Origin: Minisyncoccota bacterium
Lineage (GTDB): Bacteria; Patescibacteriota; Minisyncoccia; Phycocordibacterales; UBA9973
Assembly (NCBI GenBank): GCA_043776915.1
Contig: JAYVQT010000034.1
Coordinates: 1 to 54,581, forward strand
DNA: 54,581 nucleotides
Direction of reading: 5' to 3'
Shown piece by piece: positions 19,077-35,746 of the stretch. The first letter of the stretch is position 1, and each line of letters opens with the position of its first letter. Under the pieces are notes generated by a model that was not told the origin of the DNA, did no database searches, and saw nothing but the letters and a program-made list of their open reading frames with translations. The translations under genes were made by a program, and so were the position numbers.

Positions 19077-19607
19077 ATGGAACTTGAATCAAAAATTGAA
19101 GGATTACTTTTCTATAAAGGCGAAGAAATGTCTGTGTGGAAATTGGCGCAGTTGCTTGAAGTTACTCCAGAGCTTGTTGATGAGGCGCTTCTAAAACTCG
19201 AGCATTCATTCGTAGGTAGAGGATTGACTCTGATTAGAAAAGATGAAGTGGTGATGCTCGGCATTGCGCGCGAACTTTCGCCGATTATCGAATCAATTCG
19301 CAAAGATGAGATAACTCGCGATCTCTCAAAGGCTTCACTCGAAACATTTTCAATCGTCCTGTATAAAAGTGGCATTACTCGAAGTCAGATCGACTATATT
19401 CGTGGAGTGAACTCAAGCTTTATACTTCGCAACCTACTTATCCGTGGATTAATTGAGAAAGTCATAGATGAGACAGATAACAAACGGGCATTATACCGAC
19501 CGACATTTGATGCGCTCGCCTACATGGGTATCACAACTATTACTGACTTACCTAACTATGATCAGATCCGTACTGAATTAGAATTAGCGATACATCAAAG
19601 TAAGTAA
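19077..19607 (+). CDS. scpB: Segregation and condensation protein B
   Basis: A tandem winged-helix protein of 176 aa (IEGLLFYKGEEMSV..., LSKASLETFSIVLYKSGITRSQIDYIRGV), immediately after scpA. Confidence 0.85.
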   Translation: MELESKIEGLLFYKGEEMSVWKLAQLLEVTPELVDEALLKLEHSFVGRGLTLIRKDEVVMLGIARELSPIIESIRKDEITRDLSKASLETFSIVLYKSGITRSQIDYIRGVNSSFILRNLLIRGLIEKVIDETDNKRALYRPTFDALAYMGITTITDLPNYDQIRTELELAIHQSK

Positions 19608-25753: not shown

Positions 25754-26449
25754 GCATAATTAAAGTTAGGTACAATTAATCGTAATTTTTCTCCATGATT
25801 TTTATTAAATTCATCATTGTTTGCATTCCCCATAAAATCAAGACAGTATGGGCGTTGCGAAGCAACGCCCACTCCTTAGTTCGTTCAGAGCCCCTTAGTT
25901 CCATTCTGGTGCTCCTAGTGTCTGGGTTTCCGAACTGATAAAGCACCATTCACTATTGAAAATTAGTATAGAAGAATTTAAGAAATTTAAGTACTCTTTC
26001 TGGTAGATAGAGATCAGTCAAAAAAATAACCCTATCTGGCTCGTGTGGAAGGATATCTTACTAACAATTAAATGGGAAGATATGTTCCCCTATCCTAGGG
26101 TATCGTTACAACAGATACGTTCTTTACGTACCATAGCTTCTGTATGACATTCATAATGTACATATGTGCACATGTTCACTGGCTCCGAACCTGGGAGGAT
26201 GTACGGAATGCTATAAGAAATTAAAAAACATCTGGGCCATCTCCCACGGTCGAGATCACCATTATTTCTTAAATAGTTCAAAATCGGATGTCTCCATTAT
26301 TTTCTTTCATTCATTTTAAATGTCGAAGTCGCTGCCCACGGACTTAGTGTCCGCTGAATTTAGAACATACAGAGAAAATAGGAAGTTACTTCCCGTATTA
26401 AATTCTGTGCTTTAATTATTAACAGTGGTATAAGTTTTCGTAATTCAAA
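25754..26449. other. ORF-free region of about 700 nt with local GC-rich structured segments; candidate ncRNA or degenerate element
   Basis: The only ORF of 60 aa or more is an implausible one at 26090-26281. The 9-bp GC hairpin gggcgttgc-gaa-gcaacgccc sits at 25850-25870. By hand count, 25841-25930 is about 53% G+C, against a much more AT-rich background. Confidence 0.3.
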
Positions 26450-26481
26450 GTACAATAGAATTTTAGCTAATTCTATTGTAC
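26450..26481 (-). terminator. Hairpin overlapping the stop codon of the PG-binding protein gene
   Basis: Perfect 13-bp stem gtacaatagaatt/aattctattgtac with a 6-nt loop. Only a weak U-tract follows on the minus strand. Confidence 0.45.
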
Positions 26482-27705
26482 TGTTGCTGTTTCAATATCT
26501 GATGTCGCAGATAGGGGAGTATCTGATCCTAATTCAATTCCACCAACTGTTACAGATGTTGAAATTGGTCCAGTCATGTTTGAAGTATTCGCAAATACGT
26601 CTATAATTTTTGAATCTCCCATAGCCGAGAATATATAAGAGGGAAAAACAACCTTTTTAGTTGGTTCACTAACTATATATGTTGGATCTAGGCTTGAAGT
26701 TATACCAGAAATATACGTACTAAAAGTAAATGAAAAATATGTCAACCTTGCGCTTTGATTATCTCTATTAGTAACTTTGAAGGAAGCTATTTTAGTGCCC
26801 ATTCCCTTAGTAACAGTCTGACTATTAAAATCTGGGTTAGGGACTACTGTAAAAAAAGGAGGTGCTGCGTTAACTGCTACAGGCACAGTTGAGGGGTCTA
26901 TGTTAATTATTACAGAATCAGACGTAGGTTTATTGACCATATCACCATTAGGAAGCTGAAATATATTACATTGAACTGTTGTAGTCCCTTCAGTCCAAGG
27001 TGCAGTTCCAGAAGTATTATCAAGATTTCCTGTCATTTTTCCTCCATTACTATTTTTAATACTACAGTCAGACATTCCTTTTGTTGTCCAAGTTATCACT
27101 GGCTTTGCTCGGTAAGCTACAGTAATTGCTCCTTCAGCACCATTAGCTTTGATGCTTACTGTAGGTGTATTTATTTGAGTAGAAGCTACAGAAGGCGAAA
27201 CACTAGAAACAGTATTTTGTGCTATTTGTTGAGTGTTCTGTTGAATTTGCTGAACTGTTTGCTGTATTTGTTGAACAGTAGTGACTAATCTGCTACAAGA
27301 TTCACCAGTACTTATACTAAATCTTGATGTTGAAGTGCAACCGATTGGAAGATTAGGAGTTATTGGTTGGGTTGTTGTTACTGTTTGCTCAGCTTGATTT
27401 GAAGGAGTCAGAATTATTGCCAGAATATTGTTTGCTTTTACACGAGTTGCTTTACCAAAATAACCATTTGAAGATAGCCCACTCGCTGATTGAAATGCTT
27501 TTACTGCCTTAACAGTTCCCAAACCAAACCAGCCATCTACTTTACCTGAATAGACCCCTTGGTTTTGTAAAAAATCTTGAAGCTCTTTAACGGTGTCACC
27601 CTTGGAACCATACTTCAAATTCACATCGAATGAGGCCCTAGAAAATGTAGGGGTGAGTAAGAAAACGAAAACAGCAAGTGCAAGATATTTTTGTAGACTT
27701 TTCAT
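26473..27705 (-). CDS. Secreted cell-surface protein with an N-terminal peptidoglycan-binding domain
   Basis: Signal peptide (MKSLQKYLALAVFVFLLTPTFSRA) and a PG_binding_1-like repeat (GSKGDTVKELQDFLQNQGVYSGKVDGWFGLGTVKAVKAFQ). These are followed by a Q-rich heptad repeat (QQIQQTVQQIQQNTQQIAQN) and a Thr/Ser-rich beta-type C-terminal region. Confidence 0.8.
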   Translation of the reverse strand: MKSLQKYLALAVFVFLLTPTFSRASFDVNLKYGSKGDTVKELQDFLQNQGVYSGKVDGWFGLGTVKAVKAFQSASGLSSNGYFGKATRVKANNILAIILTPSNQAEQTVTTTQPITPNLPIGCTSTSRFSISTGESCSRLVTTVQQIQQTVQQIQQNTQQIAQNTVSSVSPSVASTQINTPTVSIKANGAEGAITVAYRAKPVITWTTKGMSDCSIKNSNGGKMTGNLDNTSGTAPWTEGTTTVQCNIFQLPNGDMVNKPTSDSVIINIDPSTVPVAVNAAPPFFTVVPNPDFNSQTVTKGMGTKIASFKVTNRDNQSARLTYFSFTFSTYISGITSSLDPTYIVSEPTKKVVFPSYIFSAMGDSKIIDVFANTSNMTGPISTSVTVGGIELGSDTPLSATSDIETATVQ

Positions 27706-27870
27706 ATAATTAGAGATTTATTTACATGGCAGGACTCAAAAAGCTCCCAGCCAGATACATAAGTTTCCCCATATAGCCCGTCAAGGCGAACTCTGACTAG
27801 GAGTTCTTCGACCTTGACGGGACTTATTCACCATGCCGCCGATTACTCGAAGGTTTAGGCTACTTTCTTA
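27706..27870 (-). promoter_or_regulatory. Structured, GC-enriched 5' leader candidate upstream of the PG-binding protein gene
   Basis: By hand count, about 49% G+C over 27721-27860. Extended hairpin at 27777-27821: the outer stem cccgtcaagg/ccttgacggg is 10 bp perfect and the inner stem gaactc/gagttc is 6 bp. No T-run follows on either strand. The class is not identified. Confidence 0.35.
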
Positions 27871-28001
27871 TTTAGTAATGCTTCTAAAGCATACAATAAA
27901 ATGATAAGATATACTAGTACAATGTTCACAACATGCACATATTCACGAACTCCGATGATGTTGCCTATCTATACAAAACTTGGTTTCGGTTTTTATTCTC
28001 A

Positions 28002-28010
28002 TGGTATAAT
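28002..28010 (+). promoter_or_regulatory. Extended -10 (TGgTATAAT) 6 nt upstream of the ATG at 28017
   Basis: tggtataat at 28002-28010. This supports the internal ATG as the true start. Confidence 0.55.
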
Positions 28011-28016
28011 AGACTT

Positions 28017-28349
28017 ATGGCAACCGTCAAACAAAAATTAGCCCTAGAAAATATCGTGGAAAATCATGGAAATATAGGAAAAGCAATGAAAAATGCAGGA
28101 TACAGTGATAACACAGCAAAGAATCCTAAGAATCTAACTGAGAGTAAGGGTTATCAATCTCTCTTGGAATCATGTGGACTTACAAGAAACTTTGTCATTT
28201 CAGCACTAGTAGAAGACATTAGAAACAAACCGCAGAATAGAGGACGTGAGCTGGCAATTGCAATCGACTTACTAGGTCTTAATGATATTGATCCAGAAAA
28301 AGATGATAAGTTGGTAATTAATGTTACAAACTTTCGTACGAGGAAATAA
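28017..28349 (+). CDS. Small HTH protein resembling phage terminase small subunits (TerS, Terminase_2-like N-terminus)
   Basis: KQKLALENIVENHGNIGKAMKNAGYSDNTAKNPKNLTESKGY matches the TerS N-terminal pattern (..F..EY....N...A...AGYS..tA......L). 110 aa from ATG 28017; the upstream extension in the track overlaps the promoter. Confidence 0.5.
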   Translation: MATVKQKLALENIVENHGNIGKAMKNAGYSDNTAKNPKNLTESKGYQSLLESCGLTRNFVISALVEDIRNKPQNRGRELAIAIDLLGLNDIDPEKDDKLVINVTNFRTRK

Positions 28350-28375
28350 AAAGTACAACAGGTGTGTTCGGCAGA

Positions 28376-28400
28376 AGTGAGTTGCCTTACTCATTTTTTT
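28376..28400 (+). terminator. Intrinsic terminator after the TerS-like gene
   Basis: 7-bp stem agtgagt/actcatt (one G.U pair), loop tgcctt, followed by a T-run. Confidence 0.55.
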
Positions 28401-28487
28401 GATTCTAAAACACATTAATGTTAATATAGCAATGTGCCTATAGATCAGAGAAAGAAGCGTTTTTATTATTTTTTAATTTACAAATCT

Positions 28488-29486
28488 ATGAAAAAAGTAC
28501 TCCTCCTCACGTTTTTATTGCTTTTTATTTTAAATATATCAAAAGTATATGCAACTCAAGGAGCTTGTTCTTCTCATTTTGGAGTAAATTGTAGTACGGG
28601 AATGAGCACAACAGGTAATGTTATTTGTAATGATGGCTGGACTGATAGTAGTGTTGCTTATACAGATATGAATGAATGTATGAATAAATTATCTTGTACT
28701 CAAGCTGAGTATGACGCACTTGAGTCAAAATATGGGGTACTTGATGACTCAGGCCAACTTAATACAATTACTGGTCAGATAAATGATATATACAGTCAGA
28801 AACAAGATCTAGTAAATCAGATGAATAATTTAGATTCACAAACCTTAAATGGAATCCAGCAATCTGGTGGAATAGTAACTGCGGGACAATTGAGAAATAT
28901 TGAATTAAATAAATTAAATGATTTAAAAAATAAAAATAGACAATTGACTGAACAATATAATCAATTAAAATCTCAAGGTGATAGTCTACAGCTTAATATG
29001 ACCAATAAGACTACTCAAGTAAATAATGACTGTCACCAAATGGCGGTATCTGGATTATACGCAAAAATGAATAAGATTATAGCTGCTAGACAAATACAAT
29101 CTCAAGTAAATAATAATCAAGACAGTACACCAATAATTAATAAACAGAAGACAGAGATTGTTACTAAAACTTCTGCAAAAATGACACCAGAAGCAGAATG
29201 TTTAATGCTTTGGGGAGAGCACACTCATCCAAGTAAGGATAAATCAGAAGATATACTTTCTTCATTTTCTACTTGTGCGTGTGATAAGGGTTACTTTTTC
29301 CCTTCCTTTACGATATATAATGCCAAAATCAACAAATGCACGCTAATTAAAAATATAGATAGCGTGGCAAAATTACAACAAGTAACGACACTGCCTTCTA
29401 AGCCTATTGTTACTGAAAATCTAAATATCAAAGTACCTTGGTATAAAAAATTCTTTAATTTTCTTCCAAAATTTAAATTTTGGTAA
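28488..29486 (+). CDS. Secreted protein with Cys-rich N- and C-terminal modules around a Q/N-rich coiled coil
   Basis: Signal peptide MKKVLLLTFLLLFILNISKVYA. Cys-rich segments are GACSSHFGVNCS..VICNDGW..NECMNKLSC and EAECLMLWG..STCACDKGY..NKCTL. The start is set at ATG 28488 (the track gives GTG 28434). Confidence 0.6.
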   Translation: MKKVLLLTFLLLFILNISKVYATQGACSSHFGVNCSTGMSTTGNVICNDGWTDSSVAYTDMNECMNKLSCTQAEYDALESKYGVLDDSGQLNTITGQINDIYSQKQDLVNQMNNLDSQTLNGIQQSGGIVTAGQLRNIELNKLNDLKNKNRQLTEQYNQLKSQGDSLQLNMTNKTTQVNNDCHQMAVSGLYAKMNKIIAARQIQSQVNNNQDSTPIINKQKTEIVTKTSAKMTPEAECLMLWGEHTHPSKDKSEDILSSFSTCACDKGYFFPSFTIYNAKINKCTLIKNIDSVAKLQQVTTLPSKPIVTENLNIKVPWYKKFFNFLPKFKFW

Positions 29487-29571
29487 ATTTATTAATTTAA
29501 AAATAAAATTAAATACATACAATATTATATCAGTATAACTACTTGTTGTTTTAATATCGTAATATATAGAT

Positions 29572-30276
29572 ATGGAAATTAAGAATTATTCATCGTTAAT
29601 TACAGAAGGTGTAGAAATATGCAAAAAGGCTCAAGAATTTTCTGAGATTGATTTCTTCCCTCTACTTACAAGAGATATGATATTTGATATTGTAACTCGG
29701 TATCAAAGTTGGTTAGATACTATAATAAAATTTTTAGAAATTAAGTTAAGTAATAATGATACAAGAATTACATTCTTTCAAGAAGCTGATGGAATACCCA
29801 GTAATATTTATATTCTTTCTAATTATAAATACATGTTTGGGGGTTCAGATGAGTCAATAAAATTAATGAAGGATATGGTAATAGAAACTAGAAAAAAAAT
29901 AAATTATCTAAGAGAAATAGAACAGGAAGAATCTAGTAATGTAAATGATTTATTTACCTTTACTTTAACTAAGGATGGTCTTCTTTCTAGAAAAAAACCT
30001 ATTCCAGGTGATAAGTCTTATTCTATGGATAAAGGGTCTAGGCGGCATAAGATTATAGAAGCACTAGTATCAAATAAAAATGATAATTTTGTTTCAACAG
30101 GAGATCTCGCAGAAATAGTCAGTTGTGAAGAGGTAGAAACCCGCAAAACTTGTGGAGAAATTAGAAAACAAATTATGCAGCACTTTGCTGGAATAAAGGT
30201 AAAAGAAATCATTGATTCCAAAACAGGTAGTGGCTACCGTATTAATCCAAAAGCCAAAATAATTATTATTCCATAG
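29572..30276 (+). CDS. Hypothetical protein with a C-terminal OmpR/PhoB-type winged-helix DNA-binding domain
   Basis: The C-terminus RRHKIIEALVSNKNDNFVSTGDLAEIV...TRKTCGEIRKQI...IDSKTGSGYRINP follows the trans_reg_C pattern (..L..L......vsr..L..........v.v.I..LRkKl....I.tvrg.GYrl). There is no receiver domain. Confidence 0.5.
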   Translation: MEIKNYSSLITEGVEICKKAQEFSEIDFFPLLTRDMIFDIVTRYQSWLDTIIKFLEIKLSNNDTRITFFQEADGIPSNIYILSNYKYMFGGSDESIKLMKDMVIETRKKINYLREIEQEESSNVNDLFTFTLTKDGLLSRKKPIPGDKSYSMDKGSRRHKIIEALVSNKNDNFVSTGDLAEIVSCEEVETRKTCGEIRKQIMQHFAGIKVKEIIDSKTGSGYRINPKAKIIIIP

Positions 30277-30308
30277 TACGCCCAATATGCCTGCCAATAA
30301 CAGTTATC

Positions 30309-30331
30309 AAAGCCTTATATAAGGCTTTTTT
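30309..30331 (+). terminator. Intrinsic terminator
   Basis: 8-bp stem aaagcctt/aaggcttt, loop atat, followed by a T-run. Confidence 0.65.
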
Positions 30332-30432
30332 GCTATGCATAGCGTACCAACGAAGGATATTTTTTGATTCTATTAAATGGTCTAATCTACATAATTCTCA
30401 ATAAAGAAGATTAACATTAATTTACAAAAAAT

Positions 30433-30720
30433 ATGAAAAAAGATGGAGATAGATATTTTTATACTAGTAACTTTCCAGTAGCGGTATTTCTATGTGCAAA
30501 GAATCAACAGGTAGTCAACGTATACCCACTGGGTAGAGAGCAGAAGGAGTTTGTCTTTGTAAGGTCGTCAAGACTGGAGGAATTGGAATATAAATATAAA
30601 TTCGGAGATAAACACGATGAAGATTTACTAATTCAGGTGCATCTCTACGAACAAGCTCGGAGAGAGTTACTGAATTTACTCAAGGATACGAAATTGAACA
30701 GCGGAATTATTAGTTATTAA
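30433..30720 (+). CDS. Hypothetical small protein (95 aa) of the element
   Basis: An ORF immediately upstream of, and co-oriented with, the P-loop ATPase gene. No motif recognised with confidence. Confidence 0.4.
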   Translation: MKKDGDRYFYTSNFPVAVFLCAKNQQVVNVYPLGREQKEFVFVRSSRLEELEYKYKFGDKHDEDLLIQVHLYEQARRELLNLLKDTKLNSGIISY

Positions 30721-30732
30721 AATTGAAATTAT

Positions 30733-32103
30733 ATGGAAATCAACACAAAGAAAACGAGAAAAGCATCCCTCGTGTTAGAAGATCAAATCATTGAGACTGT
30801 ATATGACGCAATCAAGGAAGAAACACGGTTCGCTATATATAAAAACAACATTGTCGAATTTTTGGATGCAGTGACAACTCACAAAGGTGAATTCCACCCC
30901 CTTGATGCTAAGAGCGATATTGTGAGCAAGGGTGTTGTCTTGCTACCATCCATACCACTCGAATACAGCACTGATATTGAGCTTACGCTCGCAGTGCAAG
31001 CATTCATTCACAAGTATCTCGATATTTCGCCAGACTACGAGCAAATCGCCTCATACTATGTCCTCTGTAGCTGGCTGTATGACCGTTTCAACGAATTACC
31101 GTATCTTCGTGCTATTGGCGACTTTGGGAGCGGTAAAAGCCGATTTCTCCAAACTATTGGCTCTATCTGCTATAGACCTATTTTCACTGGTGGAGCAACG
31201 ACTACAGCCCCTATATTTCGCATTTTAAACGAGATACGTGGCACACTCATCCTTGACGAAGCTGACCTAAAAGCAAGCGATATGACGAACGACATTATCA
31301 AGATACTCAATATGGGATACCAGAAAGGTGGCTCTGTGTTAAGAATGGGAGGCAAAGACATGGAGGACCTAAAAGCTTTTGATGTATTTTCTCCGAAAGT
31401 AATAGCTACCAGAGAAACCTTTAATGATAAAGCTCTTGAGAGCCGATTCCTTGTTGAAGAAATGGGGCGTGGGAAGCTACGTAAAGATATACCACTCCGC
31501 CTGAGTCATAACTTTTACGCAGAAGCACTCGAGTTACGTAATAAGCTACTCATGTGGCGATTTAAGAATTACAACAAAGAATTAGTCTTTGATGATAGAG
31601 ATATTGAAGGAGTGCATCCACGGCTTAAGCAGATAGTTATTCCGCTTATGACACTCATTGATTCAGAAGAAATGAAGCAATCGCTGAAAGAGTTTGTGCA
31701 GAAATATAATGTGGAACTTACTGCTGATAGAGGGCTTTCACGGGAATCAGATATAGCGTTTGCGATACTCAAGTTTGAACATGATACGCGCAAAAAGGAG
31801 ATCACTGTGGGCGAGATTGCAGAATATGTTAACACCGACATTTTGGATTTTGACGACAAACTTACTCCTAGAAAAATTGGTTGGTATCTTCGCTCAAAAA
31901 TGCAGTTGAAGCCATATAAAACACGGCGTGGCTTTGTGCTTGAACTTGAACGTAACCGTGAAAGATTAGATTTCTGGAAAGAACGATACGGTATTACTGA
32001 TGCGGATATTCGAGGTGAAGAAGTGAATGATGTGAACGATGTGAATGTTGTAAGAAGGGTTGACGAAAAGGATATACCTACTGCTCAAGAGATCGGATTT
32101 TAG
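30733..32103 (+). CDS. P-loop NTPase with a C-terminal winged-helix region; putative replication or helicase-loader protein of the element
   Basis: Walker A GDFGSGKSRF and Walker B TLILDEAD. The C-terminal segment ITVGEIAEYV...LTPRKIGWYLRS...RRGFVLE...FWKERYGI resembles the C-terminal domain of phage/plasmid primase-associated ATPases (DUF3631-like, from memory). Confidence 0.55.
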   Translation: MEINTKKTRKASLVLEDQIIETVYDAIKEETRFAIYKNNIVEFLDAVTTHKGEFHPLDAKSDIVSKGVVLLPSIPLEYSTDIELTLAVQAFIHKYLDISPDYEQIASYYVLCSWLYDRFNELPYLRAIGDFGSGKSRFLQTIGSICYRPIFTGGATTTAPIFRILNEIRGTLILDEADLKASDMTNDIIKILNMGYQKGGSVLRMGGKDMEDLKAFDVFSPKVIATRETFNDKALESRFLVEEMGRGKLRKDIPLRLSHNFYAEALELRNKLLMWRFKNYNKELVFDDRDIEGVHPRLKQIVIPLMTLIDSEEMKQSLKEFVQKYNVELTADRGLSRESDIAFAILKFEHDTRKKEITVGEIAEYVNTDILDFDDKLTPRKIGWYLRSKMQLKPYKTRRGFVLELERNRERLDFWKERYGITDADIRGEEVNDVNDVNVVRRVDEKDIPTAQEIGF

Positions 32104-32304
32104 GTTATTACTTAACTACTGCTATTCTCCGCTGTGTCGTAGGTGTTGTCATTTGCAGTACGAAACTCCCACAAAAAAAGCTCGGAATCTTTCCCGACTA
32201 ATCCGAAAACCATACCTTTCGAGTGAAGCACCGTACATGCTCATTAAGCATGCGGGTCTTACACAGCAGGATTTTCTAGATTCGGAGAAATAAGATTTTA
32301 AAAA

Positions 32305-32469
32305 ATGGAACTTGATACAGAACAAAAAATAGTAAATATCTTTACAGACGAGGAATTGGAAAATATTTCTGGTCTATGTTCTGTTTTACAAAGAATCCGA
32401 ACCCGACTTATTTCTGAGGGCTATTCCATAAATGAATTAAGACAAAAATTACTTAAAAATAAAGTATAA
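32305..32469 (+). CDS. Candidate 54-aa ORF just upstream of the recombinase (possible directionality factor or regulator)
   Basis: MELDTEQKIVNIFTDEELENISGLCSVLQRIRTRLISEGYSINELRQKLLKNKV. It is not in the track because it is under 60 aa. It ends 27 nt before the recombinase start. Confidence 0.3.
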   Translation: MELDTEQKIVNIFTDEELENISGLCSVLQRIRTRLISEGYSINELRQKLLKNKV

Positions 32470-32496
32470 AAATGTTATAATTAAAACATTCAATTT

Positions 32497-34176
32497 ATGG
32501 CTAAAACTATTGACGAAAAACCGTATAGAAACTATTACCTTATCTATACTCGCAAAAGCACAGATGATACCGAGAATCAAAAAAATTCTCTTGCGTACCA
32601 AATCGGAGAAGCTATTAGATTAGCAAAATTACATCATCTCCCTATCGCTCCAGTTGATATAGAGAATCTCTGCAAAGATGGAATTATTAAAGAGCGTCAT
32701 ACTGGCTTTAAAGAAGATGCGGACTTTGATATTGATCCTATGGGCAAGGTTACTTACACCATTGAAAGACCTAAATTTTTAAGACTTGTTAGATTCCTCA
32801 AAGACGGATATTTCAAAGGTGTTATTTTCCTCTGTTGGGATAGAGCGAGTCGAAACAAGAATGACGATGCTGTTCTAAGAAAACTAATGAAGCAAGGTGT
32901 CGATATTCACTTCGTACAGGCTCAATACGACTCTAAAACTAGTGCTGGAGAGCTCCATATGGACGTAGACGGTATGTTCTCACAACACTTCTCTAGAGTT
33001 ATTAGTGAGAAGGTTACTAATCAAAACAGAAAGCTCCGCCAAGATGGTGTATGCACCTATAAAGCCCCTATTGGCTACTTGAATGAAGGAAATTCTAAGC
33101 ATAAACCGTTTGATCCTATTCGTGCTCCAATTATAAAAAATATCTTTGAAAAGTACGCTGAGGGAACATGGAGTCTGCATGACCTTTCCGAATGGGCCAA
33201 GACACAAGGGCTAACTATGTACCCTTCACGCCGAAAGCGAACTATGGAAGAAATGCTTGCGGATGATGAGATTAAAATTGATGCCATTTGTCGCCCAATA
33301 ACAGAAAAAATTATTCAACGAATACTTAATAATCCATTTTATATTGGTATGATTAAAGATAGGGATTCCCCAACTGGTGTGCGAGTAAGCACAAGCCATG
33401 AAGCTCTTGTCACGAATGAACTTTTTAACCGTGTTCAACAAATATTAAAATTGAAGAAAGTTAGTATTCACTACACGGAAAAAGTTTCTATGCCTTATCG
33501 TGGCATGTTGCGTTGCAATAACTGTCACCGTGTTTATACGCCCTATAAAAAGAAAGGAATCGACTATTATGGAGCAAGATGTGATAAGAATTGCTCGAAT
33601 ACTCAAAAAAGTGTTAATGGGAAATATATAGAAAACAAAATTGGTGAAAAAATAAGTGAACTTTTTTATACAGAAGAAGAGCTTGTAGAAATTGATACCA
33701 TGATAAAAACTGACCTAAAAACACTTGAAGTGAAGCGACAGAAAGGATTAGAGCAAATCCAGCGACAAAAAAGCAAAGTTCGTGAAGACCTTGCGTATCT
33801 ACGAGAAAACAAACTGCCTCTACTTAAAAGCTCTGTATACTCTCCAGAAACTTTTCTTAAAGAAGAATCTGATTTAATGGCAAAACTTCAGAATTTTTGT
33901 ACTGAAGAGAACACATCAGATGTTGCAATTGATGAAGTGGTAAAAGATTTGGTGATTCTTTCCGAACTCTTGAAGGATGCTTATGTATATTATTATTTTG
34001 CTAAACCATTCGAAAAAGAAGAATTGATTCAGAAAGTTTTTTCCGAACTCAATTTATTTGAAGATACCCTTACATACAAAACTAAAAACGGATTTAGACT
34101 TCTCGAACGAACCGAAAAGACATTATGTGCCCGAGGTGGGAATCGAACCCACATCCCTTACGAGACACGATTTTAA
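32497..34176 (+). CDS. Large serine recombinase (serine integrase)
   Basis: The N-terminal resolvase domain has the catalytic Ser context YLIYTRKSTDD..NSLAYQ and a DRASRN motif. It is followed by a recombinase domain (PIGYLNEG), a zinc ribbon (CNNCHRVYTP...CDKNCSN) and a coiled coil. The last 49 nt overlap tRNA-Leu in antisense. Confidence 0.88.
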   Translation: MAKTIDEKPYRNYYLIYTRKSTDDTENQKNSLAYQIGEAIRLAKLHHLPIAPVDIENLCKDGIIKERHTGFKEDADFDIDPMGKVTYTIERPKFLRLVRFLKDGYFKGVIFLCWDRASRNKNDDAVLRKLMKQGVDIHFVQAQYDSKTSAGELHMDVDGMFSQHFSRVISEKVTNQNRKLRQDGVCTYKAPIGYLNEGNSKHKPFDPIRAPIIKNIFEKYAEGTWSLHDLSEWAKTQGLTMYPSRRKRTMEEMLADDEIKIDAICRPITEKIIQRILNNPFYIGMIKDRDSPTGVRVSTSHEALVTNELFNRVQQILKLKKVSIHYTEKVSMPYRGMLRCNNCHRVYTPYKKKGIDYYGARCDKNCSNTQKSVNGKYIENKIGEKISELFYTEEELVEIDTMIKTDLKTLEVKRQKGLEQIQRQKSKVREDLAYLRENKLPLLKSSVYSPETFLKEESDLMAKLQNFCTEENTSDVAIDEVVKDLVILSELLKDAYVYYYFAKPFEKEELIQKVFSELNLFEDTLTYKTKNGFRLLERTEKTLCARGGNRTHIPYETRF

Positions 34177-34209
34177 GTCGTGCGCGTATACCAGTTCCGC
34201 CACTCGGGC
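34128..34209 (-). tRNA. tRNA-Leu (anticodon UAA), class II with a long variable arm; no encoded CCA
   Basis: The minus-strand sequence is GCCCGAG-TG-GCGGAACTGGTATACGC-G-CACGA-CTTAAAA-TCGTG-TCTCGTAAGGGATGT-GTGGG-TTCGATT-CCCAC-CTCGGGC-A. It folds into a complete cloverleaf. Confidence 0.9.
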
Positions 34210-34309: not shown

Positions 34310-35746
34310 ATGTCTAAAGAGTACCATACTACTATCGGTCTTGAAATTCATGCAGAGCTCAATACGAACTCTAAAATGTTTTGTGGGTGCATCAATAACC
34401 CTGATGAAGAAAAACCGAACGCTAATATCTGTCCCGTATGCATGGCTCACCCAGGGACTCTTCCTGTTATTAATAAAAAAGCGGTGGAGAATGTTATAAA
34501 AGTTGGTCTTGCTGTTGAGGCAGATATTGCTGATTTTACCGAGTTTGATCGTAAGAATTATTTCTATCCAGATATTCCGAAAGCCTACCAGATATCACAA
34601 TACAAATATCCAATTGTTTCTGGTGGAAAGCTCAATGGTGTTGCTATCACTCGAATTCATTTAGAAGAAGATACGGCCAATAATAAACATGAAAAAAGTA
34701 GCCTGTCTACCGGGCAGGCAGGCTACTCACTCGTCGACTTTAATCGCGCTGGTGTCCCACTTATGGAGCTCGTGACAGAGCCGGTTATTCACAGCCCAAG
34801 GCAAGCAGGTGATTTTGGTCGTGCACTACAGCTTCTATTACGCTATCTTGGAGTATCGGAAGCAAATATGGAGAAAGGCCAGATGCGTGTCGAGCTTAAT
34901 ATTTCTATTTCTGATAACCCTACTAAACTTGGAACAAAATGCGAAGTTAAAAATATAAACTCTTTTCGCTCAGTTGAACGTGCAGCAGAATATGAGATAA
35001 AGCGTATGAGCGACCTTCTCGATGCCGGACGTGGTAGTGAAATAGTACAGGAGACTCGCGGCTGGGATGAAAACAAGCAATCAACATTTTCCCAACGCTC
35101 AAAAGAAAATGCTAATGATTATCGCTATTTCCCAGATCCTGATTTACCAAAGCTCTATTTGAGTAAAGCCTTCGATATTGAAAAGTTGCGAAGTGAGCTC
35201 CCTGAGCTCCCTGTAGCAAAACGTGCACGATATGAAAAGGAATATATGCTCAAGGTTGATGATATAGAAACATTTATAGCAGATATAAACCTTGGTACAT
35301 ATTTTGAAGAAATTGCAAAAATTTTAGCTGATACAAACAAAATTAAAATAGCTGCAAACTACATTACTTCAGATTATCTGGGCTTAAGAAAAACAAATTC
35401 GGAAGTCCGACTTCCGAATATCAAGAACTTCGCAGAGCTCATAAGTATGGTAACCGAGGGGCAGATTTCTTCTCGTGCTGCAAAAGATATCTTGGCCCTG
35501 ATTGTCCTTGCCGATGAGTCGCCTTTAAAAATCGCACATGAAAAAGATTTAATTCAGAAGAATGACGAAGGTGTACTAAAAGAAATAGTACAGAAAGTTA
35601 TCGATTCCAATCCGGCTGTAGTCGCGACCTACAAAGGTGGCAAAGAAAATGCCCTCATGTCTCTCATTGGTCAAATTATGAAAGAAACGAAAGGCTCTGC
35701 GAATCCAGCCTTAGTGCAGAAAATCTTAAAAGAATTGCTTGCATAA
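34310..35746 (+). CDS. gatB: Asp/Glu-tRNA(Asn/Gln) amidotransferase subunit B
   Basis: The N-terminus IGLEIHAELNT.SKMFCGC...ANICPVCMAHPGTLPV and the motifs DRKNYFYPDIPKAYQISQ and RIHLEEDTA are GatB signatures. 478 aa with a YqeY-like tail. Confidence 0.93.
   Translation: MSKEYHTTIGLEIHAELNTNSKMFCGCINNPDEEKPNANICPVCMAHPGTLPVINKKAVENVIKVGLAVEADIADFTEFDRKNYFYPDIPKAYQISQYKYPIVSGGKLNGVAITRIHLEEDTANNKHEKSSLSTGQAGYSLVDFNRAGVPLMELVTEPVIHSPRQAGDFGRALQLLLRYLGVSEANMEKGQMRVELNISISDNPTKLGTKCEVKNINSFRSVERAAEYEIKRMSDLLDAGRGSEIVQETRGWDENKQSTFSQRSKENANDYRYFPDPDLPKLYLSKAFDIEKLRSELPELPVAKRARYEKEYMLKVDDIETFIADINLGTYFEEIAKILADTNKIKIAANYITSDYLGLRKTNSEVRLPNIKNFAELISMVTEGQISSRAAKDILALIVLADESPLKIAHEKDLIQKNDEGVLKEIVQKVIDSNPAVVATYKGGKENALMSLIGQIMKETKGSANPALVQKILKELLA

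What the first reader, a model, noticed from the sequence alone, without database searches (positions are those of the whole stretch)
27871..34209. Compact integrative element at tRNA-Leu with a serine integrase, a Rep-like ATPase and a lone TerS-like gene: a possible phage satellite in a reduced genome
Between housekeeping blocks lies a module of about 6 kb made of separate promoter/terminator units:
- a TerS-like HTH protein (28017-28349)
- a secreted Cys-rich/QN-rich protein (28488-29486)
- a wHTH protein (29572-30276)
- a 95-aa protein plus a P-loop ATPase with a primase-associated-type C-terminal winged helix (30433-32103)
- a 54-aa ORF (32305-32469)
- a large serine recombinase (32497-34176), abutting the 3' end of tRNA-Leu(UAA)

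There is no capsid, portal, large terminase, tail or lysis gene.

The combination of integrase, replication ATPase, regulators and a small terminase alone is the architecture of phage-inducible chromosomal islands and satellites, which redirect helper-phage packaging. I am not aware of a well-described example of such an element in this type of organism.
Basis: inference. Interest (0 to 1): 0.7.

Follow-up and report, generated by a model that had tools for sequence, protein, structure and literature searches.

The report
Satellite-like integrative element in CPR bacterium
An 8-kb mobile element sits at a tRNA-Leu gene of a tiny-genome (Patescibacteria) bacterium; it carries its own integrase, a replication helicase, a small RNA of unknown function (LOOT) and a phage-derived small terminase but no other virion genes, which makes it the best candidate so far for a phage satellite in this group.

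Summary
The block is a real insertion. In 27 related Paceibacterota loci the flanking genes are 0.3-3.1 kb apart and contain no element gene; here they are 8.6 kb apart.

- **TerS-like gene:** it is a real small terminase homolog. It is 64% identical to a gene directly upstream of TerL and portal in a 42-kb phage contig. In 8 of 10 IMG/VR neighbours tested, the next gene is TerL. The top nine fold matches are all TerS structures.
- **ATPase:** it belongs to a family of more than 2,000 Patescibacteria proteins. In phages and a few other proteins, the homologous region is fused to DnaG-type or Prim-Pol primases.
- **Boundary:** The element also includes a leftward PG-binding gene, the Rfam orphan LOOT RNA, and about 0.6 kb of non-coding DNA shared with sister elements.
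- **Sister elements:** eleven were examined in other genomes. Most share LOOT, DUF5659, a replicase slot, a small ORF and a serine integrase whose ORF ends inside an antisense tRNA. Three others also carry a lone terS.

Packaging by a helper phage is inferred, not shown.

The parts
25840..25853 (.). Best candidate for the left junction (attL). AAGACAGTATGGGC matches the right junction AAGACATTATGTGC at 12 of 14 positions. The true junction must lie between 25763 and 26029.
   Evidence: Homology to the closest relatives stops just after the up2 stop codon, at about 25762. The 12/14 match is the only repeat found between the two ends, but alone it is at chance level. An independent Logan contig of the identical element starts at 25831. 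Sister element L094, of the same integrase clade, shows an analogous 12/14 repeat exactly at its predicted left border. This is inference and is not proven.
26029..26139 (+). Conserved non-coding block of about 110 nt, shared with the left ends of sister elements. Function unknown.
   Evidence: An nhmmer profile finds it only in the window, L190/L191 (108-220) and L194/L195 (9766-9876), with E about 1e-30. In L194 it lies directly upstream of terS. Its conservation across hosts shows that this DNA belongs to the element.
26182..26210 (+). Motif M, GCTCCGAACCTGGGAGGATGTACGGAATG. It resembles a tRNA 3' half and looks like a serine-integrase half-site. It is probably a relic or secondary att site.
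   Evidence: The same motif marks the left end of L090 (3521). It is the first base of contig L188. It follows the integrase stop in L194 (17415). In L090 and L188 it shares the first 4-6 nt with the tRNA-Asn 3' end at the other junction.
26473..27705 (-). Leftward cargo gene: a secreted 410-aa protein with an N-terminal peptidoglycan-binding domain.
   Evidence: Pfam PG_binding_1 4.9e-14. It is absent from relatives' empty sites. A homolog with 55% identity over 164 aa occupies the same slot in sister element L093.
27732..27863 (-). LOOT RNA (Rfam RF03000) with a terminator-like 3' tail. It is transcribed divergently from the integrase operon.
   Evidence: Rfam score 64.8 bits against a gathering score of 46.4, at 27746-27861. 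The same RNA sits in the same place and orientation in 7 other elements. My own CM R1 finds it nowhere else in 2.57 Mb of fetched sequence. A conserved promoter-like box lies upstream and GGG(A)GCTTTTTG lies downstream. The window copy lacks the last GNRA hairpin seen in the others.
27922..27934 (.). Perfect palindrome ATGTTCACAACAT in the divergent control region. Operator-like.
   Evidence: It is the only exact copy in the window. Similar TGTTCACA/GTGAAC boxes occur in the same intergenic region of L090, L093, L094, L190 and L194. Its function is inferred.
28017..28349 (+). Small terminase subunit (TerS) homolog, 110 aa, with no partner TerL.
   Evidence: - 56 homologs found.
- P0127, 64% identical, lies directly upstream of a GpA_ATPase TerL and an SU10 portal.
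- 31 IMG/VR loci carry homologs; in 8 of 10 tested, the next ORF is TerL.
- phrog_51 is hit by 15 of 32 members.
- The AF2 model has pLDDT 82. The top 9 PDB matches are all TerS; the SF6 G1P DNA-binding domain scores probability 0.99 and TM 0.73.
- No TerL in the window.
28488..29486 (+). Secreted Cys- and Gln/Asn-rich protein, 332 aa. Accessory gene of unknown function.
   Evidence: ORF and signal peptide seen. No family match. Lowest G+C of the element, 0.31. No homolog in sister elements.
29572..30276 (+). 234-aa protein in the slot upstream of DUF5659. Function unknown; a possible regulator or initiator.
   Evidence: No significant family match. Every sister element has a 220-330 aa ORF in this slot, but the sequences are not detectably related. 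A terminator-like hairpin follows at 30309-30328.
30433..30720 (+). DUF5659-like 95-aa protein, a hallmark of the element family.
   Evidence: The Pfam DUF5659 match is weak here (E 0.019). The equivalent ORF directly upstream of the replicase slot is annotated DUF5659 in all sister elements. It is 48% identical to the L155 copy.
30733..32103 (+). P-loop ATPase, 456 aa, interpreted as a replicative helicase or initiator. Walker A GDFGSGKS at residues 129-136, Walker B LILDEAD at 172-178, C-terminal winged helix.
   Evidence: - More than 2,370 homologs, mostly Patescibacteria, with no Pfam family.
- The homologous region is the C-terminal half of DnaG-type primase fusions (Zn_ribbon_DnaG + Toprim) in phage contigs L148-L150 (35-40% identity).
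- It is fused to Prim-Pol (PF09250) in P0109 and to PF22763 in P0031.
- There is only a weak MCM-like match around Walker A (E 0.7).
- The AF2 core has low confidence. Foldseek finds nothing significant; the top hits are MCM, ORC, PriRep1 and the SaPI5 primase-helicase.
32305..32469 (+). 54-aa ORF directly upstream of the integrase. Candidate recombination directionality factor.
   Evidence: Homologous small ORFs occupy the same slot in L083 and L094 (42-55% identity). In sister elements with other integrase types, the slot holds an HTH_17 (excisionase-type) protein. Its function is inferred from position only.
32497..34176 (+). Large serine recombinase (integrase), 559 aa. Its last 16 codons are read from the antisense strand of tRNA-Leu.
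   Evidence: Resolvase plus Recombinase domains, with a weak Zn ribbon. phrog_95 7.5e-53. NCBIfam XisF-like 1e-21. An R19-K20-S21 motif lies near the N-terminus (read). Overlap with the tRNA is shown.
34117..34130 (.). Right junction (attR). Sequence shared with relatives begins at 34126.
   Evidence: Alignment with 7 empty sites shows the tRNA is 100% conserved. Divergence starts 2 nt beyond the discriminator base: window ATGTGCCC against TTGTGCCC in the relatives.
34127..34209 (-). tRNA-Leu(UAA), the integration target. It is intact.
   Evidence: ARAGORN and Rfam (61.7 bits). The same tRNA lies between up2 and GatB in relatives that lack the element.

Best explanation
The region from about 25.85 to 34.13 kb is an intact integrative element of about 8.3 kb. 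It belongs to a previously undescribed family that is widespread in Patescibacteria.

**Integration.** A large serine recombinase inserted the element at the extreme 3' end of tRNA-Leu(UAA) without damaging the tRNA. The attachment site overlaps the last codons of the integrase gene, so the integrated integrase ORF ends inside the antisense tRNA. This part is shown or strongly supported.

**Layout.** A divergent control region holds a palindromic operator-like box. It separates two units:
- A leftward unit begins with the LOOT small RNA, which has its own promoter-like box and a U-tract terminator. A variable secreted cargo gene follows.
- A rightward unit reads terS, accessory genes, DUF5659, a primase-associated-type helicase ATPase, a small putative directionality factor and the integrase.

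**Proposed life cycle (inferred).** After induction, probably by an infecting phage, the element excises. It replicates using its own helicase/initiator, with a host or helper primase. Its phage-derived TerS recruits the helper's large terminase to element DNA, and the DNA is packaged into helper capsids. This is a PICI/SaPI-like satellite strategy. LOOT is proposed to act as the element's regulatory RNA at the switch; this is speculative.

**What the confidence covers.** The stated confidence is for the full satellite reading. That this is a mobile integrative element of this family I hold at about 0.9.
For: **It is an insertion.**
- up2 and GatB are 8,557 bp apart here. They are 319-3,082 bp apart in 27 relatives, none of which has any element gene or LOOT.
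- The tRNA is identical throughout, and divergence begins 2 nt past the discriminator.
- All ORFs are intact, and the identical element was assembled independently in another run.

**It belongs to a family.** The module DUF5659, ATPase, small ORF and serine integrase recurs in L083, L084/86, L090, L093, L094, L188 and L190. L155 and L194 have a different protein in the replicase slot. The integrase ORF ends inside an antisense tRNA (Leu, Glu, Arg, Asn and others) in 9 of 11 elements.

**LOOT.** It is present in 8 elements at the same position and strand. It occurs nowhere else in 2.57 Mb of fetched sequence.

**TerS.** Lone terS copies next to a serine integrase recur in L155, L192 and L194. 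There is no TerL or portal in the window.

**Helicase.** Primase fusions support this role.
Against: - No excised circle, attP junction or encapsidated copy was seen. None of 12 element contigs tested is circular.
- Close relatives of the ATPase are absent from IMG/VR.
- Only 4 of about 11 family members carry terS, so packaging hijack cannot be the family's general strategy.
- The left junction is not statistically defined.
- The ATPase has no significant match to any solved helicase, and no primase or origin was identified.
- No repressor was identified.
- The TerS fold matches have non-significant E-values (0.45 and above) because the domain is small.
- At about 8 kb, the element is smaller than typical PICIs.
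Confidence: 0.55

Rival explanations
1. This is an integrative, self-replicating element (an 'integrated plasmid' or cryptic integrative element) that does not depend on phages. It moves by excision followed by natural transformation or another route. The terS homolog is either a passenger picked up from a phage or has been re-used as a DNA-binding regulator or excision cofactor.
For: Most sister elements have no terS (L083, L084, L090, L093, L094, L188, L190). terS sits at different positions in different elements: right of LOOT in the window, and at the far left end in L155 and L194. No other packaging-related gene is present. The conserved core of integrase, replicase and LOOT would suffice for an integrative plasmid.
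Against: terS is 50-64% identical to genes in the TerS position of real phages, and full length over the HTH and the following helices. Lone terS copies recur in four separate elements with three different integrase types. That recurrence argues for selection rather than accident. No relaxase or other transfer gene was found.
Confidence: 0.27
2. This is a defence or interference island. The element is kept by the host mainly because its TerS decoy and secreted surface proteins interfere with phage packaging or adsorption. Its own horizontal transfer is secondary.
For: Sister elements carry defence-like cargo on the leftward arm. Examples are an N6_N4 methyltransferase with large ORFs in L084/L085, a 1,169-aa AAA_11/AAA_12 helicase with DUF2726 in L094, and a Polbeta/NTase pair in L194. 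The window's cargo consists of secreted proteins. PICIs are known to interfere with their helpers (established knowledge).
Against: Interference and satellite transfer are not exclusive. The window's own cargo matches no defence family in Pfam, PHROGs or NCBIfam, and PADLOC was not run. An intact integrase, a candidate directionality factor and a replicase all point to mobility.
Confidence: 0.1
3. This is a decayed prophage remnant that kept only the integrase, one replication gene and terS.
For: The phage-related genes are terS, a helicase domain also found in phage primase fusions, and a serine integrase of the phage type phrog_95.
Against: The same compact, intact architecture is found in about 11 independent elements, with conserved non-phage hallmarks (LOOT, DUF5659) and no structural-gene fragments. 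There are no pseudogenes. The ATPase family has more than 2,000 members of uniform length, about 455 aa.
Confidence: 0.04

Closest known systems
Phage-inducible chromosomal islands (PICIs / SaPIs)
   Same: Site-specific integrase at one end. A divergent control region. An own replication protein of the primase-associated helicase kind. A phage-derived TerS without TerL, capsid, tail or lysis genes. Small size relative to a helper phage of about 40 kb.
   Different: - The integrase is a large serine recombinase, not a tyrosine integrase.
- It targets a tRNA 3' end.
- The element is about 8 kb, against 10-15 kb.
- No primase, identified ori, Stl-like repressor or capsid-remodelling genes.
- It carries a conserved structured RNA (LOOT).
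- The host is a Patescibacteria (CPR) bacterium.
- Helper dependence is untested.
Satellite phage P4 (and P4-like elements)
   Same: Integrates at a tRNA gene. Encodes a replication ATPase with a C-terminal DNA-binding winged helix. P4 immunity is exerted by a small RNA (CI RNA), a possible analogy for LOOT (my own knowledge, not tested).
   Different: P4 alpha is a primase-helicase with its own Pfam families, none of which matches here. P4 uses a tyrosine integrase, cos sites, Sid/Psu/Delta and no TerS. No sequence relationship was found.
Phage large serine integrases (phiC31, Bxb1, A118, SPbeta SprA; XisF, CcrB)
   Same: Domain architecture of Resolvase, Recombinase and Zn ribbon. Best NCBIfam hits are XisF and CcrB. 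No long direct repeats at the junctions, as expected for a 2-bp crossover.
   Different: The well-studied serine integrases mostly target protein-coding genes (my own knowledge). Here nine family members sit at tRNA 3' ends, and the attachment site overlaps the integrase stop codon region.
SSV-type integration in archaeal fuselloviruses
   Same: attP lies inside the integrase gene and the target is a tRNA gene, so integration changes the integrase ORF (my own knowledge).
   Different: SSV integrases are tyrosine recombinases, and integration splits the gene in two. Here only the last 4-20 codons are exchanged.
LOOT RNA motif (Rfam RF03000; Weinberg et al. 2017, PMC5737381)
   Same: The window RNA scores above the curated threshold and matches the full model.
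   Different: The motif is listed as an sRNA. I could find no function or genomic context for it: the paper's main text has no discussion and its supplements are not held. Here it is tied to one family of integrative elements.

Membership tests
PICI-type phage satellite | Site-specific integrase and insertion at a defined att site, absent from related genomes | tested here: met
   Serine integrase. Empty sites in 27 relatives. Sharp junction at the tRNA 3' end.
PICI-type phage satellite | No genes for capsid, portal, tail, lysis or large terminase | tested here: met
   None found in Pfam, PHROGs or NCBIfam scans of all element ORFs. tblastn with TerL and portal sequences from related phages found nothing in the window.
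PICI-type phage satellite | Packaging-redirection gene (own TerS or capsid-remodelling genes) | tested here: met
   The TerS homolog is supported by synteny in phages, PHROG hits and fold.
PICI-type phage satellite | Autonomous replication module (primase/helicase plus ori) | tested here: inconclusive
   The ATPase is homologous to the C-terminal halves of primase fusions. There is no primase in the element, no ori was identified, and there is no significant match to solved helicases.
PICI-type phage satellite | Master repressor relieved by a helper-phage protein | not testable with these tools
   Only an operator-like palindrome and unassigned ORFs are available. No repressor family was matched.
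PICI-type phage satellite | Helper-dependent excision, replication and encapsidation | not testable with these tools
   No circular contig. No close relatives in IMG/VR. Reads are not available.
Large serine recombinase | N-terminal resolvase catalytic domain with nucleophilic Ser, Recombinase domain, Zn ribbon and C-terminal extension | tested here: met
   PF00239 3.5e-13 and PF07508 3.5e-12. PF13408 is weak at 0.041. An R-K-S21 motif is read from the translation.
Small terminase (SPP1 G1P / Terminase_2 / phrog_51 type) | N-terminal HTH DNA-binding domain of the TerS fold | tested here: met
   Foldseek top hits are 2cmp and 4zc3 (SF6 G1P DNA-binding domain), with probability 0.99 and TM 0.72-0.73, although E is about 0.5.
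Small terminase (SPP1 G1P / Terminase_2 / phrog_51 type) | Gene located immediately upstream of the large terminase in phage genomes | tested here: met
   This holds for the homologs: L153/L157 (GpA_ATPase TerL) and 8 of 10 IMG/VR neighbours tested. It does not hold for the window copy, which is lone.
Small terminase (SPP1 G1P / Terminase_2 / phrog_51 type) | Profile match to a curated TerS family | tested here: inconclusive
   The window protein itself scores only 0.093 against phrog_51 and has no Pfam hit. Among its homologs, 15 of 32 hit phrog_51 (best 1.4e-6) and 4 of 32 hit Terminase_2 weakly.
LOOT RNA (RF03000) | Covariance-model score at or above the curated gathering threshold over the full model | tested here: met
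   64.8 bits against 46.4, over model positions 1-121. The last hairpin is shortened in the window copy.
P4-like satellite | P4 alpha-type primase-helicase, Sid/Psu/Delta, cos site, tyrosine integrase | tested here: not met
   None of these families is matched. The integrase is a serine recombinase.

The most novel reading that the evidence does not exclude
Patescibacteria (CPR) host a large, undescribed family of phage satellites. The elements are integrated at tRNA 3' ends by serine integrases whose attP overlaps the integrase stop. They replicate with a family-specific helicase. Their lysogeny-like switch is run by the orphan LOOT RNA, an RNA-based immunity analogous to P4 CI RNA. A subset hijacks helper-phage packaging with a captured TerS.
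Probability: 0.3. Interest if true: 0.85.

Novelty: new variant of a known kind. Interest (0 to 1): 0.68.

Why it matters
CPR/Patescibacteria make up a large share of bacterial diversity, have tiny genomes and are almost uncultured. Very little is known about their mobile elements, and I found no report of phage satellites in them.

If this reading holds:
- It extends the satellite life style to ultra-small episymbiotic bacteria.
- It gives a genomic home and a testable role to an orphan structured RNA (LOOT) and to DUF5659.
- It defines a family of more than 2,000 helicase-like proteins.
- It supplies a set of serine integrases with natural tRNA targets. These could be useful as genetic tools for CPR bacteria, which currently lack them.

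Even the conservative reading is new annotation for thousands of MAG loci. That reading is a family of tRNA-targeting serine-integrase elements that carry LOOT.

Tried and rejected
- **tRNA fragment repeat (attL).** I looked for a direct repeat of a tRNA fragment in the window and in L083, L086, L093 and L094. None exceeded chance. An 11-nt match in L093 (3432) and the 12/14 matches in the window and L094 are suggestive by position only.
- **Circular forms.** I tested 12 element contigs for terminal overlaps and found none.
- **Integrase reading frame.** I considered that the frame through the tRNA is universally conserved. It is conserved only within integrase clades, so I make no claim.
- **Motif M as attL.** I considered 26182-26210 as the window's attL. 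I rejected it as the outer boundary because the block to its left (26029-26139) is conserved in elements from other hosts and so is element DNA.
- **ATPase identity.** There is no hit in Pfam, PHROGs or NCBIfam. The PDB profile search gave only a weak MCM Walker A match. The AF2 core was poorly predicted and Foldseek found nothing significant. The assignment rests on domain fusions instead.
- **terS in cultured phages.** No match in INPHARED.
- **Sister-element ORFs.** Family scans of ten of them were uninformative.
- **Weak LOOT-model hits.** The two hits in L035 and L104 are terminator hairpins, not LOOT.
- **Promoter/terminator scan.** It did not support discrete transcription units.
- **Literature.** Searches on LOOT, DUF5659 and CPR satellites returned nothing relevant.

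Full report
**1. The observation**

- The integrase (32497-34176) has Resolvase and Recombinase domains and matches PHROG integrase family phrog_95 at 7.5e-53.
- tRNA-Leu(UAA) lies on the minus strand at 34127-34209.
- The integrase ORF does not merely abut the tRNA. Its last 50 nt are the antisense of the tRNA's 3' half.
- None of the element's ORFs matches a capsid, portal, tail, lysis or large-terminase family.
- TerL and portal proteins from related phages find nothing in the whole window.

**2. Host and empty sites**

GatB (34310-35746) places the window in Candidatus Paceibacterota / Nomurabacteria-like CPR bacteria. The best relatives are about 81% identical at the protein level.

In 27 loci from GTDB genomes and metagenomes, the gene order is up3, up2, tRNA-Leu(UAA), GatB, (GAPDH). 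In these loci up2 and GatB are 319-3,082 bp apart. None contains a homolog of any element gene, and no LOOT RNA was found in the seven scanned with Rfam or in any of them with model R1. In the window the spacing is 8,557 bp.

The tRNA is 100% identical across window and relatives. Similarity ends two bases beyond the discriminator: the window reads ...ATTATGTGCCC and the relatives read ...TTGTGCCC. On the other side, similarity to the two closest contigs (L116, L117) ends just after the up2 stop codon, at about 25762.

So the extra DNA is about 25763-34126, not 27871-34209. An identical copy was assembled independently from run SRR23617274. That contig starts at window position 25831.

**3. 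The element belongs to a family**

The 456-aa ATPase has more than 2,370 homologs, nearly all of about 455 aa. The few that carry names are from Patescibacteria, and none has a Pfam family. I looked up the genomic context of seven homologs. Each shows the same module:
- a variable 220-330 aa ORF
- a DUF5659 protein of about 90 aa
- the ATPase
- zero to two ORFs of about 200 aa
- a small ORF of 55-75 aa
- a large serine recombinase of 520-575 aa

Two further elements, L155 and L194, were found through the terS gene. They keep DUF5659, the small ORF and the integrase but have an unrelated protein in the ATPase slot.

In 9 of 11 elements the integrase ORF terminates inside an antisense tRNA. The tRNAs include Leu-UAA, Glu-UUC (twice), Glu-CUC, Arg-GCG and Asn-GUU. 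One is an Asn tRNA-like gene interrupted by a group I intron. At least three integrase clades are involved; the window's is 51-54% identical to some and 23-26% identical to others.

**4. LOOT RNA**

Rfam places a LOOT RNA (RF03000) at 27746-27861 on the minus strand, scoring 64.8 bits against a threshold of 46.4.

The same RNA is present in seven other elements: L090, L093, L094, L155, L190, L192 and L194, at 71-92 bits. In every case it lies on the strand opposite to the integrase operon, in the divergent intergenic region. It sits 40-131 nt upstream of the first leftward gene.

I built a covariance model from the eight copies and searched 2.57 Mb, comprising all fetched loci and the window. 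The model returned only those eight elements. It also gave two weak hits that are plain terminator hairpins.

All copies are preceded by a conserved promoter-like box (TTGTAT ... TAATAAG-like). All are followed by GGG(A)GCTTTTTG. LOOT therefore looks like a terminated small RNA or an attenuating leader.

Upstream lies a perfect palindrome, ATGTTCACAACAT (27922-27934). It is unique in the window, and similar boxes occur in sister elements.

The leftward genes are variable cargo:
- a secreted PG-binding protein in the window and in L093
- a trypsin-like protease in L155
- methyltransferase or helicase genes in other elements

**5. The TerS question**

The 110-aa protein has 56 homologs.
- P0127 is 64% identical to it. 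That gene lies directly upstream of a GpA_ATPase-type TerL, a small ORF and an SU10-type portal in a 42-kb phage contig.
- A scan of IMG/VR found 31 loci. In most, an ORF of 405-730 aa follows within a few hundred bases. Eight of ten tested are TerL (Terminase_3 or Terminase_6N), one with an intein.
- Fifteen of 32 family members hit phrog_51 'terminase small subunit', best 1.4e-6. Four hit Pfam Terminase_2 weakly.
- An AF2 model (pLDDT 82) gives small terminases as its top nine PDB matches. The SF6 G1P DNA-binding domain scores probability 0.99 and TM 0.73. E-values are not significant for so small a domain.

The protein is therefore a real TerS homolog, recently related to phage genes. In the window it is alone.

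Three other homologs outside viral contigs are also lone terS genes in serine-integrase elements that carry LOOT: L155, L192 and L194.

**6. The ATPase**

No curated family matches it. The only sequence hint is an MCM-like Walker A region at E 0.7. The AF2 model is poor in the ATPase core, and Foldseek returns nothing significant. The list is headed by MCM, ORC/Cdc6, PriRep1 and the SaPI5 primase-helicase, and the C-terminal part matches winged-helix domains.

The useful evidence comes from domain fusions:
- In phage contigs L148-L150 and L152 the homologous region (35-40% identity over about 440 aa) is the C-terminal half of 897-979 aa proteins. For the three scanned (L148-L150) the N-terminal half is a DnaG-type primase, with the CHC2 zinc finger and, in L149 and L150, Toprim. 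L150 also carries TerL, and L152 carries a tail protein.
- Two close homologs are fused to Prim-Pol (PF09250) or to PF22763.

This is the standard position of a replicative helicase or initiator. The element itself has no primase.

**7. Junctions**

As expected for a serine recombinase, no long direct repeat flanks the element.

The only repeat between the two ends is AAGACAGTATGGGC (25840) against AAGACATTATGTGC (34117). Alone it is at chance level. Three things make it worth noting:
- It lies 87 nt after the up2 stop.
- It lies 9 nt from the start of the independent contig.
- It has a counterpart in L094: CCTTTTTATGACCC against CCTGTCTATGACCC, located exactly between host genes and cargo genes.

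Two conserved non-coding pieces lie further in.
- The first is a 110-nt block (26029-26139), shared with L190 and L194.
- The second is a 29-nt motif (26182-26210). In L090 and L188 this motif marks the left end of the element. There it shares its first 4-6 bases with the tRNA-Asn 3' end at the other junction, and it looks like a tRNA 3' half with extra bases inserted. That is what an attP-type half-site might look like, but this is my own reading and was not tested.

The left end is therefore bracketed to 25763-26029 and is not fixed.

**8. Interpretation**

Shown or strongly supported:
- This is an intact, recently mobile integrative element.
- It belongs to a widespread Patescibacteria family.
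- It was integrated by a serine recombinase at a tRNA 3' end.
- It carries LOOT, DUF5659, a primase-associated-type ATPase and a real TerS, with no other virion gene.

Inferred:
- The element excises and replicates.
- It uses TerS to have helper terminase package it, in the PICI/SaPI manner.

Against this inference:
- No excised or packaged form was seen.
- Most sister elements lack terS.
- No repressor, origin or primase was found.

The main rival is a phage-independent integrative replicon in which terS is a passenger or has been re-used.

I found no paper describing CPR satellites, this element family, DUF5659 or a context for LOOT. The searched library is limited to open-access papers.

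**9. Verdict**

The boundaries need extending by about 2 kb, and the satellite life style remains to be shown. I rate it a new variant of a known kind (integrative phage-satellite-like element), with interest 0.68.

Noticed in passing
window 27732-27863 (minus); L090 8318-8471, L093 6524-6671, L094 8578-8733, L155 12423-12575, L190 3381-3534, L192 12358-12505, L194 13321-13464: The orphan Rfam motif LOOT (RF03000) is a fixed component of this integrative-element family. It has its own promoter-like box and a U-tract terminator. It was found nowhere else in 2.57 Mb of fetched CPR and phage sequence.
   Followed up: yes
relatives L001, L008, L026, L102, L104, L116, L117 compared with the window and L002-L016: The tRNA-Leu(UAA) between up2 and GatB is on the plus strand in seven relatives and on the minus strand in the others. 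The tRNA has therefore been inverted repeatedly at this locus, possibly by recombinase activity.
   Followed up: partly
L104 11990-12052; L116 about 110 bp downstream of tRNA 1188-1271: There are scars of tRNA-Leu 3'-end duplication in relatives with empty sites. L104 has an inverted 12-nt copy (TTTGTGCCCGAG) across the bidirectional terminator. L116 has a direct 14-nt copy (CCCACCTCGGGCAC). Both suggest past integration and excision at this tRNA.
   Followed up: partly
L090 14029-14314 (minus); L194 about 19158-19440: A group I intron (RF00028, 79 bits in L090) interrupts the tRNA-Asn-like gene that serves as the integration target of these sister elements. ARAGORN and the Rfam tRNA model miss these genes. 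The L194 case is read by eye from sequence similarity to L090; Rfam's gathering-threshold scan of L194 returned no intron or tRNA there.
   Followed up: partly
L194 9570-9618 and 19120-19174: Sister element L194 is flanked by a direct repeat of about 50 nt, made of a terminator plus 17 nt of the tRNA-Asn 3' end. It also keeps an attP-like motif right after its integrase stop (17415). It therefore looks like a composite of nested or accreted elements.
   Followed up: partly
L148 8732-11467, L149 8315-11254, L150 8585-11425, L152 8735-11428: Phage contigs encode primase-ATPase fusion proteins of 897-979 aa whose C-terminal half belongs to the uncharacterised ATPase family of the element. The N-terminal DnaG-type primase domains were confirmed for L148-L150; L152 was not scanned.
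   Followed up: yes
L167/L168/L170 (e.g. L167 1563-3755): A 730-aa large terminase (Terminase_3) contains an intein (Hint and intein-splicing domains) in phages that carry a related TerS.
   Followed up: no
window 25849-25871: A strong GC-rich hairpin (TGGGCGTTGC GAA GCAACGCCCA) lies right after the candidate left junction, 95 nt downstream of the up2 stop. It may terminate up2 or be part of the att site.
   Followed up: no
window 27922-27934: A perfect 13-bp palindrome, ATGTTCACAACAT, lies between the LOOT promoter region and terS. It is operator-like, and related boxes occur in the same place in sister elements.
   Followed up: partly
window 28001-30300: This is the lowest G+C of the window: 0.29-0.31 in the secreted-protein and 234-aa genes, against 0.38 overall. 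These two genes have no homologs in any sister element.
   Followed up: partly
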